Source of the DNA: Escherichia coli 042
GTDB taxonomy: Bacteria; Pseudomonadota; Gammaproteobacteria; Enterobacterales; Enterobacteriaceae
Strand: one strand, 5' to 3'
Length of the DNA: 64,000 nucleotides
Assembly: GCF_000027125.1 (NCBI RefSeq)
Contig: NC_017626.1
Below, in pieces: positions 14,801-17,800 of this stretch. A program made the position numbers. Position 1 is the first letter of the stretch, and each line of letters begins with the position of its first letter.

Positions 14801-17800
14801 TCGAAACCATGGGCGGTGTGATGACGACGCTGATCGCGAAAAACACCACTATCCCAACCAAGCACAGCCAGGTGTTCTCTACCGCTGAAGACAACCAGTC
14901 TGCGGTAACCATCCATGTGCTGCAGGGTGAACGTAAACGTGCGGCTGATAACAAATCTCTGGGTCAGTTCAACCTGGATGGTATCAACCCGGCACCGCGC
15001 GGCATGCCGCAGATCGAAGTTACCTTCGATATCGATGCTGACGGTATCCTGCACGTTTCCGCGAAAGATAAAAACAGCGGTAAAGAGCAGAAGATCACCA
15101 TCAAGGCGTCTTCTGGTCTGAACGAAGATGAAATCCAGAAAATGGTACGCGACGCAGAAGCTAACGCCGAAGCTGACCGTAAGTTTGAAGAGCTGGTACA
15201 GACTCGCAACCAGGGCGACCATCTGCTGCACAGCACCCGTAAGCAGGTTGAAGAAGCAGGCGACAAACTGCCGGCTGACGACAAAACTGCTATCGAGTCT
15301 GCGCTGACTGCACTGGAAACTGCTCTGAAAGGTGAAGACAAAGCCGCTATCGAAGCGAAAATGCAGGAACTGGCACAGGTTTCCCAGAAACTGATGGAAA
15401 TCGCCCAGCAGCAACATGCCCAGCAGCAGACTGCCGGTGCTGATGCTTCTGCAAACAACGCGAAAGATGACGATGTTGTCGACGCTGAATTTGAAGAAGT
15501 CAAAGACAAAAAATAATCGCCCTATAAACGGGTAATTATACTGACACGGGCGAAGGGGAATTTCCTCTCCGCCCGTGCATTCATCTAGGGGCAATTTAAA
15601 AAAGATGGCTAAGCAAGATTATTACGAGATTTTAGGCGTTTCCAAAACAGCGGAAGAGCGTGAAATCAAAAAGGCCTACAAACGCCTGGCCATGAAATAC
15701 CACCCGGACCGTAACCAGGGTGACAAAGAGGCCGAGGCGAAATTTAAAGAGATCAAGGAAGCTTATGAAGTTCTGACCGACTCGCAAAAACGTGCGGCAT
15801 ACGATCAGTATGGTCATGCTGCGTTTGAGCAAGGTGGCATGGGCGGCGGCGGTTTTGGCGGCGGCGCAGACTTCAGCGATATTTTTGGTGACGTTTTCGG
15901 CGATATTTTTGGCGGCGGACGTGGTCGTCAACGTGCGGCGCGCGGTGCTGATTTACGCTATAACATGGAGCTCACCCTCGAAGAAGCTGTACGTGGCGTG
16001 ACCAAAGAGATCCGCATTCCGACTCTGGAAGAGTGTGACGTTTGCCACGGTAGCGGTGCAAAACCAGGTACACAGCCGCAGACCTGTCCGACCTGTCATG
16101 GTTCTGGTCAGGTGCAGATGCGCCAGGGTTTCTTTGCCGTGCAGCAGACCTGTCCACACTGTCAGGGCCGCGGTACGCTGATCAAAGATCCGTGCAACAA
16201 ATGTCATGGTCATGGTCGTGTTGAGCGCAGCAAAACGCTGTCCGTTAAAATCCCGGCAGGGGTGGACACTGGAGACCGCATCCGTCTTGCGGGCGAAGGT
16301 GAAGCGGGCGAGCATGGCGCACCGGCAGGCGATCTGTACGTTCAGGTTCAGGTTAAACAGCACCCGATTTTCGAGCGTGAAGGCAACAACCTGTATTGCG
16401 AAGTCCCGATCAACTTCGCTATGGCGGCGCTGGGTGGCGAAATCGAAGTACCGACCCTTGATGGTCGCGTCAAACTGAAAGTGCCTGGCGAAACCCAGAC
16501 CGGTAAGCTATTCCGTATGCGCGGTAAAGGCGTCAAGTCTGTCCGCGGTGGCGCACAGGGTGATTTGCTGTGCCGCGTTGTCGTCGAAACACCTGTAGGC
16601 CTGAACGAGAAGCAGAAACAGCTGCTGCAAGAGCTGCAAGAAAGCTTCGGTGGCCCAACCGGCGAGCACAACAGCCCGCGCTCAAAGAGCTTCTTTGATG
16701 GTGTGAAGAAGTTTTTTGACGACCTGACCCGCTAACCTCCCCAAAAGCCTGCCCGTGGGCAGGCCTGGGTAAAAATAGGGTGCGTTGAAGATATGCGAGC
16801 ACCTGTAAAGTGGCGGGGATCACTCCCCGCCGTTGCTCTTACTCGGATTCGTAAGCCGTGAAAACAGCAACCTCCGTCTGGCCAGTTCGGATGTGAACCT
16901 CACAGAGGTCTTTTCTCGTTACCAGCGCCGCCACTACGGCGGTGATACAGATGACGATCAGGGCGACAATCATCGCCTTATGCTGCTTCATTGCTCTCTT
17001 CTCCTTGACCTTACGGTCAGTAAGAGGCACTCTACATGTGTTCAGCATATAGGGGGCCTCGGGTTGATGGTAAAATATCACTCGGGGCTTTTCTCTATCT
17101 GCCGTTCAGCTAATGCCTGAGACAGACAGCCTCAAGCACCCGCCGCTATTATATCGCTCTCTTTAACCCATTCTGTTTTATCGATTCTAATCCGGAAGAC
17201 GCCTCGCATTTTTATGGCGTAATTTTTTAATGATTTAATTATTTAACTTTAATTTATCTCTTCATCGCAATTATTGACGACAAGCTGGATTATTTTTGAA
17301 ATATTGGCCTAACAAACATCGCCGACTGACAACAAATTAATTATTACTTTTCCTAATTAATCCCTCAGAAATCCTCACCTTAAGCTATGATTATCAGGGC
17401 TTAGGGTCACCCGTCAGCGCTTACAGCCGTCAAAAACGCATCTCACCGCTGATGGCGCAAATTCTTCTATAGATCGTAAAAAACGAATTATTCCTACACT
17501 ATAATCTGATTTTAACGATGATTCGTGCGGGGTAAAATAGTAAAAACGATCTATTCACCTGAAAGAGAAATAAAAAGTGAAACATCTGCATCGATTCTTT
17601 AGCAGTGATGCCTCGGGAGGCATTATTCTTATCATTGCCGCTATCCTGGCGATGATGATGGCCAACAGCGGCGCAACCAGTGGATGGTATCACGACTTTC
17701 TGGAGACGCCGGTTCAGCTCCGGGTTGGTTCACTCGAAATCAACAAAAACATGCTGTTATGGATAAATGACGCGCTGATGGCGGTATTTTTCCTGTTAGT

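What the first reader, a model, noticed from the sequence alone, without database searches (positions are those of the whole stretch)
16736..17120. hokC/mokC/sokC locus appears intact, with no adjacent IS186
dnaJ ends at 16735 and hokC/mokC follow about 100 bp later with only structured spacer between them, including the hairpins gcctgcccgtgggcaggc and gtggcggggatcactccccgcc. From memory, K-12 has an IS186 copy at this site that is thought to inactivate the locus. Here the toxin ORF, the overlapping mok frame and the 3' fold-back-like hairpins are all present, so this type I toxin-antitoxin locus may be functional.
Basis: partly seen in the sequence, partly recalled or inferred. Interest (0 to 1): 0.35.

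Follow-up and report, generated by a model that had tools for sequence, protein, structure and literature searches.

The report
Intact hokC/sokC toxin-antitoxin locus, IS186-free
This is the ordinary, uninterrupted form of the E. coli hokC/mokC/sokC toxin-antitoxin locus, which about 70% of sequenced E. coli carry and which was described in 1999; the IS186-split copy in laboratory strain K-12 is the derived state.

Summary
dnaJ ends at 16735. The convergent hokC ORF (16991..16839, minus strand, 50 aa) and the in-frame mokC ORF (from 17048) lie 103 nt downstream, and no IS186 is present.

All regulatory elements of the R1 hok/sok paradigm are present:
- a 400-nt mRNA (17141->16742);
- tac (17130-17141) pairing with fbi (16778-16790);
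- ucb, SDmok and dcb;
- SokC (17040-17098, plus strand) with its promoter.

Folding reproduces the locked-to-open switch. In 12 hok loci, the 5' end and its fbi partner change together, so the pairing is kept.

Neither hairpin is the fold-back element. One is the hokC terminator. The other is the GC hairpin after the stop codon, a perfect IS186 target (GGGG-N6-CCCC), which is exactly where K-12 is split. The finding's end coordinate (17120) also cuts off tac and the promoter.

The junction is uninterrupted in 3814 of 5426 complete E. coli genomes and in E. albertii.

"May be functional" is only partly supported. The published IS-free allele (ECOR24) gave no post-segregational killing. K-12's interrupted copy still shows a sokC-knockdown phenotype.

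Verdict: already known, low interest.

The parts
17148..17153 (-). hokC/mokC promoter -10 box (TATAAT on the minus strand), 7 nt upstream of the mRNA start; the -35 is weak
   Evidence: Read from the sequence. The position matches the -10 boxes upstream of the other hok loci. Between E. coli and E. albertii, conservation begins here and falls to 72% identity further upstream. The promoter scanner did not call it because of the poor -35.
16742..17141 (-). Full-length hokC mRNA, about 400 nt. The 5' end is placed by homology to R1 and the Rfam model; the 3' end is placed after the terminator U-run.
   Evidence: RF01794 model positions 1-157 match 17141..16989. Mean column identity to an R1-type hok locus is 77%. 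MFE is -168.5 kcal/mol, z = -6.45.
17130..17141 (-). tac (translational activator element), mRNA nt 1-12, GGGUGCUUGAGG
   Evidence: It pairs with nt 352-364 in the full-length fold and with nt 52-58 (ucb) in truncated folds. The same behaviour is seen in 12 hok loci.
17083..17090 (-). ucb (upstream complementary box, anti-SD), mRNA nt 52-59, AAGCCCCG
   Evidence: Nt 54-59 pair with the SDmok region (nt 81-86) in the full-length fold. Nt 52-58 pair with tac after 3' truncation. The tac/ucb stem is invariant in 10 loci and forms the first helix of the Rfam model.
17057..17060 (-). Shine-Dalgarno sequence of mokC (GAGG, mRNA nt 82-85), 8 nt upstream of the mokC AUG
   Evidence: Sequence. It is sequestered by ucb in the full-length fold and paired with dcb in the truncated fold.
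16839..17048 (-). mokC reading frame: 69 codons plus stop, in frame with hokC and sharing its stop codon
   Evidence: ORF list. The coordinates correspond to the MG1655 annotation b0018. Pfam HOK_GEF matches residues 25-66.
17024..17027 (-). dcb (downstream complementary box, CCUC, mRNA nt 115-118), abutting the SokC -10 box on the other strand
   Evidence: It pairs with SDmok nt 82-85 in folds of the mRNA truncated at 330-335 nt and in all IS186-interrupted K-12 transcripts. The position agrees with the remark in PMC9841398 that the Sok promoter mutation lies in the dcb.
17001..17004 (-). Shine-Dalgarno sequence of hokC (GGAG within AAGGAGAAG), invariant between hokC and R1
   Evidence: Alignment A1; last hairpin of the Rfam model.
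16839..16991 (-). hokC toxin ORF, 50 aa plus stop: MKQHKAMIVALIVICITAVVAALVTRKDLCEVHIRTGQTEVAVFTAYESE
   Evidence: ORF list. Pfam PF01848 scores 85.5 bits, E = 1.8e-24. The protein is the same (WP_000809168.1) in K-12, O157:H7, B2 and F strains.
16851..16853 (-). Tyr47 codon UAC followed by G (a UACG motif). This is the reported TadA A-to-I editing site that recodes Tyr to Cys.
   Evidence: Sequence. GGCUUACGAAUCCG is invariant between hokC and R1. PMC12214031 reports 9% editing of hokC mRNA in K-12.
16812..16831 (.). GC hairpin 7 nt after the hokC stop codon (GGCGGGG-AUCACU/AGUGAU-CCCCGCC). It is an unoccupied IS186 target, GGGG(N6)CCCC at 16815-16828. K-12 duplicates 16816-16827.
   Evidence: junctions; it is the only match to the motif in the 64-kb window. 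The target motif is from PMC5009759. An equivalent hairpin is present in all 12 hok loci.
16778..16790 (-). fbi (fold-back inhibitory element), mRNA nt 352-364, CUUCAACGCACCC
   Evidence: It pairs with nt 1-12 in the MFE and centroid structures. A segment in the equivalent position, with compensating sequence, is present in all 12 hok loci.
16745..16766 (-). Intrinsic terminator of the hokC mRNA: stem-loop GCCUGCCCACGGGCAGGC (16766..16749) followed by UUUU (16748..16745). On the plus strand it sits 14 nt after the dnaJ stop codon and has no U-run.
   Evidence: Sequence and fold. Equivalent terminators are seen in the homologues. The scanner did not call it because it has only 4 U.
17040..17098 (+). 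SokC antisense RNA, 59 nt, fully complementary to hokC mRNA nt 44-102. It covers ucb, SDmok and the mokC AUG.
   Evidence: Coordinates transferred from MG1655 sokC b4413 with an offset of +88. The fold has a 9-nt single-stranded 5' tail and a long hairpin ending in GGGGCUUUU; z = -4.95. It differs from K-12 at one base (17054 G instead of A).
17005..17033 (+). SokC promoter: -35 TTGACC (17005-17010), 17-bp spacer, -10 CACTCT (17028-17033). The -10 is non-consensus.
   Evidence: Homology to the Sok promoters of the other loci, which read TTGnnn-N17/18-TAnnnT. The sequence is identical to K-12. The scanner did not call it.

Best explanation
This is the ancestral, uninterrupted allele of the chromosomal hokC/mokC/sokC locus, a member of the hok/sok family of type I toxin-antitoxin systems, in an E. 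coli chromosome.

Mechanism, inferred by homology to plasmid R1 hok/sok and supported here by structure prediction:
1. A weak constitutive promoter makes a roughly 400-nt mRNA.
2. The extreme 5' end of that mRNA (tac) pairs with a 3' segment (fbi). In this locked form, ucb sequesters the mokC Shine-Dalgarno sequence, so the mRNA is neither translated nor bound by antisense RNA.
3. Slow 3' trimming removes the terminator and the fbi.
4. tac then pairs with ucb, and the mok translation-initiation region and the SokC target are exposed.
5. Abundant, unstable SokC RNA then pairs with the leader, and RNase III destroys the duplex.
6. If SokC is lost, mokC translation allows coupled hokC translation, and the 50-aa membrane toxin is made.

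Shown here: all sequence elements are present, the two alternative folds are predicted, tac and fbi covary across the family, there is no insertion, and the locus is conserved in the population and across species. Inferred, not shown: transcript ends, 3' processing, translational coupling and toxicity in this strain.

In K-12-type strains, IS186 has inserted in the GGGG(N6)CCCC hairpin between the stop codon and the fbi. This removes the lock. The window shows the state before that event.
For: Identity of the locus:
- RF01794 scores 119.5 bits against a gathering score of 59.
- Pfam HOK_GEF scores 85.5 bits.
- RefSeq annotates mokC here in every genome inspected.

No IS186:
- K-12 differs by a 1.3-kb IS186 with target duplication GGGATCACTCCC inside the hairpin 16812-16831.
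- Otherwise only one substitution (17054) separates the transcribed unit from K-12.

Regulatory elements:
- The full-length MFE pairs nt 1-12 with nt 352-364, and ucb with SDmok.
- Truncated RNAs switch to tac/ucb and SDmok/dcb.
- IS186-interrupted K-12 transcripts of 400-644 nt fold only in the open form.
- All 12 hok loci from six genera pair their 5' end with a 3'UTR segment in the same position.
- Three 5' sequence classes have matching fbi sequences. 92% of cells are paired, against 27-48% when the partner is slid. Two pairs change on both sides (UA to CG, and UA to GC).

SokC:
- It has a single-stranded 5' tail and a hairpin.
- Its promoter is identical to that of K-12, where the mokC/sokC duplex is cut by RNase III (bioRxiv 10.1101/510842).

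Ancestral and constrained state:
- The junction is intact in 3814 of 5426 complete E. coli genomes.
- E. albertii has the same IS-free locus next to dnaJ. It shows 5 substitutions in 400 nt, against 49 of 377 third-codon positions in dnaJ and 25 of 88 positions just upstream of the mRNA start.

The mechanism of the family is taken from PMC9841398.
Against: - No expression data exist for this strain. Transcript ends are placed by homology only.
- The SokC -10 box (CACTCT) and the hokC -35 are poor matches to consensus, and the promoter scanner called neither promoter.
- The tac-fbi duplex energy alone is only modestly better than shuffled 3'UTRs (47 of 2000 shuffles as good).
- The mini-alignment used for pair counts was built by hand around the structure, so it leans towards that structure.
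- The IS-free hokC allele of ECOR24 did not give post-segregational killing and was not activated by rifampicin (bioRxiv 10.1101/2025.08.07.668861, citing Pedersen & Gerdes 1999). Structural intactness therefore does not guarantee R1-like behaviour.
Confidence: 0.87

Rival explanations
1. The locus is structurally intact but physiologically silent. It keeps every R1-type element, yet under normal conditions it never releases enough active mRNA to kill or arrest the cell. On this view 'intact' does not mean 'functional'.
For: The IS-free hokC of ECOR24, hokA of E. coli C and hokB of K-12 could not mediate post-segregational killing. They were also not activated by rifampicin (bioRxiv 10.1101/2025.08.07.668861, citing Pedersen & Gerdes 1999). 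The hokC -35 is weak and the SokC -10 is non-consensus. Full toxicity may also need Tyr-to-Cys editing, which is only 9% for hokC in K-12 (PMC12214031).
Against: The whole transcribed unit is far more conserved between E. coli and E. albertii than neighbouring synonymous sites (5 of 400 against 49 of 377). HokC is identical in four phylogroups. Both facts argue for selection on some activity. HokC is toxic when expressed (bioRxiv 10.1101/2025.08.07.668861). sokC knockdown is deleterious even in K-12 (bioRxiv 10.1101/2020.03.04.975888).
Confidence: 0.3
2. Presence or absence of IS186 makes little functional difference. The K-12 copy is not inactivated, so the contrast drawn by the first reader (inactivated in K-12, possibly functional here) is largely moot. 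IS186 only changes the kinetics, because there is no locked mRNA reservoir.
For: A CRISPRi knockdown of sokC in MG1655 gave a strong growth defect that increased with nutrient limitation (bioRxiv 10.1101/2020.03.04.975888). mokC and sokC transcripts are detected in E. coli, and RNase III cuts their duplex (bioRxiv 10.1101/510842). The coding region, leader and sokC of K-12 differ from the window at one base. K-12-type transcripts are predicted to sit permanently in the open tac/ucb form.
Against: dCas9 bound at sokC also sits on the mokC leader, so the CRISPRi phenotype is not a clean antitoxin knockdown. Loss of the fbi, the protective hairpin and the terminator is predicted to change mRNA folding, and probably its half-life, which is the property that post-segregational killing depends on. 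About 70% of genomes and E. albertii retain the uninterrupted form.
Confidence: 0.25
3. The hairpins and complementarities are simply the dnaJ terminator region, and the hok-like features are chance or decayed remnants.
For: The hairpin at 16749-16766 lies 14 nt after the dnaJ stop codon and could serve dnaJ. The tac-fbi duplex energy alone is only p ~ 0.02 against shuffles.
Against: The Rfam E-value is 2.5e-28 and the Pfam E-value is 1.8e-24. The ORF is intact and identical across lineages. The U-run is on the minus strand, so it serves hokC. tac and fbi covary in 12 loci.
Confidence: 0.01

Closest known systems
hokC/sokC of E. coli ECOR24 (IS-free wild-type allele; Pedersen & Gerdes 1999, Mol Microbiol 32:1090; not held in the library, known here through PMC3562002 and bioRxiv 10.1101/2025.08.07.668861)
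   Same: It is the same locus in the same uninterrupted state: the hok-homologous toxin, mok, cis-antisense SokC and the fbi are all intact.
   Different: The window's allele is 100% identical over 1 kb to O157:H7 strain TR01. PMC3562002 quotes an mRNA of about 330 nt, while I place the full-length transcript at about 400 nt by homology.
gef/hokC-sof/sokC of E. coli K-12 (b4412, b0018, b4413) with IS186A
   Same: The HokC protein is identical. The leader, mokC, sokC and both promoters are identical except for one base (17054).
   Different: K-12 has a 1.3-kb IS186 between the stop codon and the fbi, inside the GC hairpin. The K-12 transcript therefore loses the hairpin, the fbi and the terminator, and is predicted never to adopt the locked fold.
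hok/sok (parB) of plasmid R1, the paradigm type I toxin-antitoxin system (mechanism as summarised in PMC9841398)
   Same: The architecture and order of elements are the same: tac, ucb, SDmok, mok, dcb, SDhok, hok, GC hairpin, fbi, terminator, with Sok antisense across the mok start. Mean column identity is 77% over about 400 nt. The two-state fold is the same.
   Different: hokC is chromosomal and sits at a fixed site next to dnaJ. The toxins are about 40% identical (my estimate from the sequences, not computed). The 5' end is GGGUGC rather than GGCGC, with a compensating fbi. An 18-nt segment of the leader hairpin is absent. The Sok -10 box has a 1-nt deletion (CACTCT against TATCCT). No post-segregational killing has been reported for hokC.
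hokB/sokB of E. coli K-12 (Obg/ppGpp-induced persistence)
   Same: It is a chromosomal hok paralogue with a Sok antisense RNA. It shows that chromosomal hok loci can have a physiological role other than plasmid maintenance.
   Different: It is a different locus and a different toxin sequence. hokB is edited at codon 29 to a high level, whereas hokC is edited at the C-terminal Tyr codon at 9% (PMC12214031). No persistence role has been shown for hokC.

Membership tests
[quoted passage not shown] | Small hydrophobic Hok/Gef toxin (Pfam PF01848) | tested here: met
   HOK_GEF scores 85.5 bits against a cut-off of 22, E = 1.8e-24, covering the full 42-position profile. The NCBIfam Hok subfamily models match below their cut-offs.
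[quoted passage not shown] | mok leader reading frame with its own Shine-Dalgarno sequence, overlapping hok | tested here: met
   ATG at 17048 is preceded by GAGG at 17057-17060. The frame has 69 codons and is in frame with hokC. R1-type mok has the same in-frame arrangement. Translational coupling itself is not testable here.
[quoted passage not shown] | Conserved structured mRNA leader (tac/ucb stem, antisense-target hairpin, SDhok hairpin) | tested here: met
   Rfam RF01794 scores 119.5 bits against a gathering score of 59, over the full model length on the minus strand.
[quoted passage not shown] | Long-range 5'-3' fold-back (tac-fbi) that locks the full-length mRNA | tested here: met
   Nt 1-12 pair with nt 352-364 in the MFE and centroid structures. 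The same pairing occurs in 12 loci with compensatory changes. The duplex energy alone is weak evidence.
[quoted passage not shown] | Alternative pairing after 3' truncation (tac/ucb and SDmok/dcb) | tested here: met
   Predicted for RNAs truncated at 330-335 and 350-360 nt and for K-12 IS186-interrupted transcripts. These are thermodynamic predictions only.
[quoted passage not shown] | Cis-encoded, unstable Sok antisense RNA across the mok translation start, made from its own promoter | tested here: inconclusive
   The sequence unit is present and folds as expected. The -35 is TTGACC but the -10, CACTCT, is poor. The sequence is identical to K-12, where sokC is annotated and where the mokC/sokC sense and antisense RNAs form a duplex that RNase III cuts (bioRxiv 10.1101/510842). 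Expression and instability in this strain were not tested.
[quoted passage not shown] | Slow 3' exonucleolytic processing to an active truncated mRNA | not testable with these tools
   This needs Northern blots or 3' RACE. My recollection of the Pedersen & Gerdes 1999 abstract is that the IS-free chromosomal hok mRNAs are processed at their 3' ends. The paper is not held, so this is unverified.
[quoted passage not shown] | Killing or growth arrest when Sok is depleted (post-segregational killing, rifampicin activation) | not testable with these tools
   The literature is negative for the ECOR24 IS-free allele (bioRxiv 10.1101/2025.08.07.668861). sokC knockdown in K-12 gave a positive phenotype (bioRxiv 10.1101/2020.03.04.975888).
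IS186 target site | 5'-GGGG(N6/N7)CCCC-3' (PMC5009759) | tested here: met
   GGGGATCACTCCCC at 16815-16828 is the only match in the 64-kb window. It is unoccupied here. It is occupied in K-12 and in strain EC11, in opposite orientations with the same duplication.

The most novel reading that the evidence does not exclude
The uninterrupted hokC locus is kept by selection for a chromosomal role other than plasmid-type killing. Its position, convergent with the heat-shock operon dnaKJ, is part of that role. The hairpin after dnaJ has no U-run on the plus strand. dnaKJ read-through would therefore make RNA antisense to the hokC 3' end, including the fbi. That could unlock or destroy the stored hokC mRNA during heat shock. 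Recurrent IS186 insertion in the GGGG(N6)CCCC hairpin would then repeatedly uncouple the two.
Probability: 0.05. Interest if true: 0.6.

Novelty: already known. Interest (0 to 1): 0.12.

Why it matters
It matters little as a discovery. IS-free hokC alleles in natural E. coli, and the idea that IS186 in K-12 separates the mRNA from its fold-back element, were published in 1999. The locus is annotated in every genome examined.

It has some practical value. It is a reminder that K-12 is the atypical state for this locus. Work on chromosomal hok function is better done on IS-free strains, where the locked mRNA reservoir can exist. Such strains are 70% of complete genomes, and O157:H7 strains carry this exact allele.

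The strong conservation of the whole transcript between E. coli and E. albertii suggests the locus is under selection, even though post-segregational killing assays were negative.

Tried and rejected
This was a poor choice: at that database size most of the 120 loci were chance matches, and only 4 were hok loci. Those four were still useful, because they included the E. albertii hokC.
2. RNAalifold on a MAFFT alignment of 10 full-length mRNAs did not recover tac-fbi, because the 3'UTRs were misaligned. It returned the invariant tac/ucb stem instead. I therefore folded each RNA separately and built a small hand-registered alignment, which is biased towards the structure.
3. The 120-nt IS186 junction queries were confounded. 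Other IS186 copies have similar GGGG...CCCC flanks and reach 81-86% coverage. I used the 110-nt design instead.
4. The three junction classes (intact 3814, orientation A 816, orientation B 940) sum to 5570, which exceeds 5426 genomes. The overlap of about 145 is unexplained. The tool may be joining nearby pieces, or IS186 may lie at nearby sites. The orientation counts are therefore approximate.
5. Pedersen & Gerdes 1999 is not held in the library. Its conclusions are cited second-hand.
6. The consensus promoter and terminator scanner called none of the locus's promoters or its terminator. These were placed by homology.
7. I first took the window to be O157:H7 because the 1-kb match was 100%. 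I rejected that: the thr-to-dnaJ region is only 98.9-99.5% identical to that strain and carries an extra IS.
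Full report
**What is in the sequence**

The window is an E. coli chromosome; 5425 of 5426 complete E. coli genomes match this region. dnaK (13600-15516) and dnaJ (15605-16735) run on the plus strand, and nhaA starts at 17577.

Between dnaJ and nhaA, on the minus strand, lies a 50-codon ORF (16991..16839). It encodes MKQHKAMIVALIVICITAVVAALVTRKDLCEVHIRTGQTEVAVFTAYESE. This matches Pfam HOK_GEF at 85.5 bits. It is the same protein (WP_000809168.1) that RefSeq annotates at this position in K-12, O157:H7, a B2 strain and an F strain. An in-frame ATG at 17048 gives the 69-codon mokC frame of the MG1655 annotation.

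Rfam family RF01794 matches 17141..16989 on the minus strand over its full length, at 119.5 bits against a gathering score of 59, E = 2.5e-28.

**The IS186 comparison**

MG1655 annotates IS186A at 15387-16731, between dnaJ and hokC. A base-by-base comparison shows that K-12 is identical to the window from the dnaJ stop codon to 16827, and again from 16816 onward. The 1.3-kb element lies between, and GGGATCACTCCC is duplicated.

The insertion point is inside the hairpin GGCGGGGATCACTCCCCGCC (16812-16831), which begins 7 nt after the hokC stop codon. That hairpin is a perfect match to the published IS186 target motif GGGG(N6/N7)CCCC (PMC5009759). It is the only such site in the 64-kb window.

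Apart from the IS, the transcribed hokC/sokC unit of the window differs from K-12 at a single base, 17054.

**Anatomy of the locus**

I aligned the minus strand 17141..16742 with an R1-type hok/sok locus from an IncFII plasmid. Its Hok protein is identical to the R1 Hok sequence I recalled from memory and used as a probe. Mean column identity is 77%, and the same order of elements is seen.

Folding the 400-nt RNA gives -168.5 kcal/mol, z = -6.45. In the MFE structure:
- nt 1-12 (GGGUGCUUGAGG, 17141-17130) pair with nt 352-364 (CUUCAACGCACCC, 16790-16778);
- nt 54-59 (GCCCCG) pair with the mokC Shine-Dalgarno region, nt 81-86.

This is the locked form described for R1: tac/fbi paired, with ucb sequestering SDmok (PMC9841398). 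When the 3' end is removed (RNAs of 330-335 or 350-360 nt), nt 1-8 pair with nt 52-58 (tac/ucb). In the 330-335-nt RNAs, SDmok pairs with CCUC at nt 115-118 (dcb). This is the open form described for R1.

The remaining 3' structure is the GC hairpin (nt 311-330) and a terminator stem-loop, GCCUGCCCACGGGCAGGC followed by UUUU (16766-16745).

The fold-back element is the segment between them. Its partner, tac, lies beyond the finding's end coordinate.

The -10 box of the hokC promoter is a perfect TATAAT (17153-17148, minus strand) with a weak -35.

**Is tac-fbi more than a coincidence?**

The duplex energy alone is only moderately unusual: -17.9 kcal/mol, reached by 47 of 2000 dinucleotide shuffles of the 3'UTR. 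The stronger evidence is comparative.

I collected 12 hok loci:
- the window;
- E. albertii hokC;
- two R1-type loci;
- a locus on a 98-kb plasmid of E. coli O111:H-;
- plasmid or chromosomal loci from Atlantibacter, Enterobacter, Citrobacter, Pseudescherichia, Candidatus Fukatsuia and Aeromonas.

In every one, the MFE structure pairs the extreme 5' end with a 3'UTR segment lying between the GC hairpin and the terminator. Three 5' classes (GGGUGCUU, GGCGCUU, GGUGCUGG) have matching partners (GCACCC, GCGCC, GGCACC).

On a hand-registered alignment, 92% of cells are standard pairs, against 27-48% when the partner is slid by 1-3 columns. Two pairs change on both sides: UA to CG in 4 loci, and UA to GC or GU. 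This alignment was fitted to the structure, so the count is supportive rather than independent.

**SokC**

Transferring the MG1655 sokC coordinates (16952-17010, offset +88) gives 17040-17098 on the plus strand. This is complementary to mRNA nt 44-102, so it covers ucb, SDmok and the mokC AUG. It folds with a 9-nt free 5' tail and a long hairpin ending in GGGGCUUUU, z = -4.95.

The promoter is TTGACC (17005-17010), 17 bp, then CACTCT (17028-17033). Compared with nine other hok loci, whose -10 boxes read TAnnnT, the hokC lineage (E. coli and E. albertii) lacks one base, so the first T is lost. This weaker -10 is not special to the window; K-12 is identical. In E. coli, mokC and sokC transcripts are detected and RNase III cuts their duplex (bioRxiv 10.1101/510842).

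**Population and evolution**

A 164-nt probe across the junction is uninterrupted in 3814 of 5426 complete genomes. In the rest, the match breaks at the hairpin.

Both orientations of IS186 occur at the same target with the same duplication (K-12 against strain EC11). Roughly 816 genomes have one orientation and 940 the other. These counts are approximate, because the three classes overlap by about 145 genomes for a reason I could not resolve. Two orientations mean at least two independent insertions, as expected for this palindromic target (PMC5009759).

E. albertii has the same IS-free locus next to dnaJ. Its differences from the window are:

| Region | Differences |
|---|---|
| hokC transcribed unit (400 nt) | 5 substitutions plus a 4-nt indel |
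| hokC third-codon positions | 0 of 51 |
| dnaJ third-codon positions | 49 of 377 |
| 88 nt upstream of the mRNA start | 25 of 88 |

The uninterrupted form is therefore ancestral, and the whole transcript is under strong constraint.

**Function**

The mechanism stated in the best explanation is inferred from R1 (PMC9841398). Here it is supported only by sequence and predicted structure.

The published evidence on function is mixed:
- The IS-free hokC of ECOR24 did not mediate post-segregational killing and was not activated by rifampicin, although HokC is toxic when expressed (bioRxiv 10.1101/2025.08.07.668861, reporting Pedersen & Gerdes 1999).
- CRISPRi knockdown of sokC in MG1655 is strongly deleterious, so that copy may still be active (bioRxiv 10.1101/2020.03.04.975888).

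My folds of K-12-type transcripts (400-644 nt, running into IS186) always give the open tac/ucb form. This fits a picture in which IS186 removes the inert mRNA reservoir rather than the toxin gene. This is an inference.

**Verdict**

The locus is intact and has every element the family requires. Whether it does anything in the cell is not shown, and the one published test of an equivalent allele was negative for post-segregational killing. The finding is already known, and the uninterrupted state is the majority state in E. coli.

Noticed in passing
window 16815-16828: The hairpin after the hokC stop codon is a perfect IS186 target, GGGG(N6)CCCC, and the only one in the 64-kb window. All 12 hok loci examined carry a G-run/C-run hairpin at this position. 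Across complete E. coli genomes, IS186 occupies this site in both orientations with the same target duplication, so it has inserted at least twice independently.
   Followed up: yes
window 16850-16853 (minus strand UACG; Tyr47 codon 16853..16851): The C-terminal Tyr codon of hokC sits in a UACG motif inside a 14-nt stretch (GGCUUACGAAUCCG) that is invariant between hokC and R1 hok. This is the reported TadA A-to-I editing site, which recodes Tyr to Cys (9% editing of hokC in K-12, PMC12214031).
   Followed up: partly
window 17024-17033: The hokC lineage (E. coli and E. albertii) has a 1-nt deletion relative to nine other hok loci, exactly in the Sok -10 box (CACTCT instead of TAnnnT). The -35 (TTGACC) is closer to consensus than R1's TTGCGC. 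The same bases form the dcb on the other strand.
   Followed up: partly
window 16742-17229 compared with L038 (E. albertii NBRC 107761): Conservation between E. coli and E. albertii follows the transcript boundaries closely. There are 5 substitutions in the 400-nt mRNA, against 28% divergence starting just upstream of the -10 box and 13% at dnaJ third-codon positions. Homology between the two species ends at about window 17229, so nhaA is not the neighbour in E. albertii.
   Followed up: yes
window 5655-7086: A roughly 1.43-kb IS3-family element (annotated IS1397 in the two matching genomes; ORFs at 6514-7044 and 5687-6409 on the minus strand) is inserted between yaaX and yaaA. Only 2 of 5426 complete genomes have an element at this site, and both are below 99% identical. 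The Rfam ES036 hit (5592-5634) lies directly beside it.
   Followed up: partly
window 1-16000 compared with L137 (O157:H7 TR01): The window is 100% identical to O157:H7 TR01 over the 1 kb around hokC. It is only 98.9% identical over thrLABC-yaaX and 99.5% from yaaA to dnaJ. The strain is therefore not an O157:H7 of that type, and the region looks mosaic.
   Followed up: partly
window 16989-17141 (minus strand): Rfam family RF01794 is named 'sok antitoxin', but its model matches the sense strand, meaning the hok mRNA leader from +1 to the hok AUG, in its tac/ucb (open) fold. It does not match the Sok RNA strand. The same holds on the R1-type plasmid locus.
   Followed up: yes
L135 (strain U13A, B2) and L136 (SMS-3-5, F), right of hokC; window 17258 onward: In these strains an island beginning with ompK and a sulfatase gene lies between hokC and nhaA. 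Homology to the window stops 70-120 bp upstream of the hokC promoter. hokC therefore sits at a recombination or insertion boundary.
   Followed up: partly
L132 (strain EC11) and hits H29, H30: Other disruptions of the locus exist. In EC11, an IS150 lies upstream of hokC, in addition to IS186. In strain 98195 the match breaks at about window 17062, inside the sokC/mok leader. In strain TUM2820 the match starts only at about window 17340.
   Followed up: no
RefSeq annotation of window 16839-16991 equivalents: PGAP labels the 50-aa HokC ORF 'mokC: type I toxin-antitoxin system toxin MokC' and omits sokC. Only the curated MG1655 record separates hokC, mokC and sokC.
   Followed up: no
window 16736-16920, plus strand: On the dnaJ strand the hairpin at 16749-16766 is followed by CTGGGTAAAAA and has no U-run. 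The next terminator-like site on the plus strand is at 16897-16909, inside hokC on its antisense side. dnaKJ transcription may therefore read into the hokC 3' end in IS-free strains.
   Followed up: no
window 15527-15604 and 36059-36111: There are Rfam hits above gathering score to tpke11 (dnaK-dnaJ intergenic region) and ES003 sRNA, and to the Thr leader at 191-310. These are expected E. coli features.
   Followed up: no
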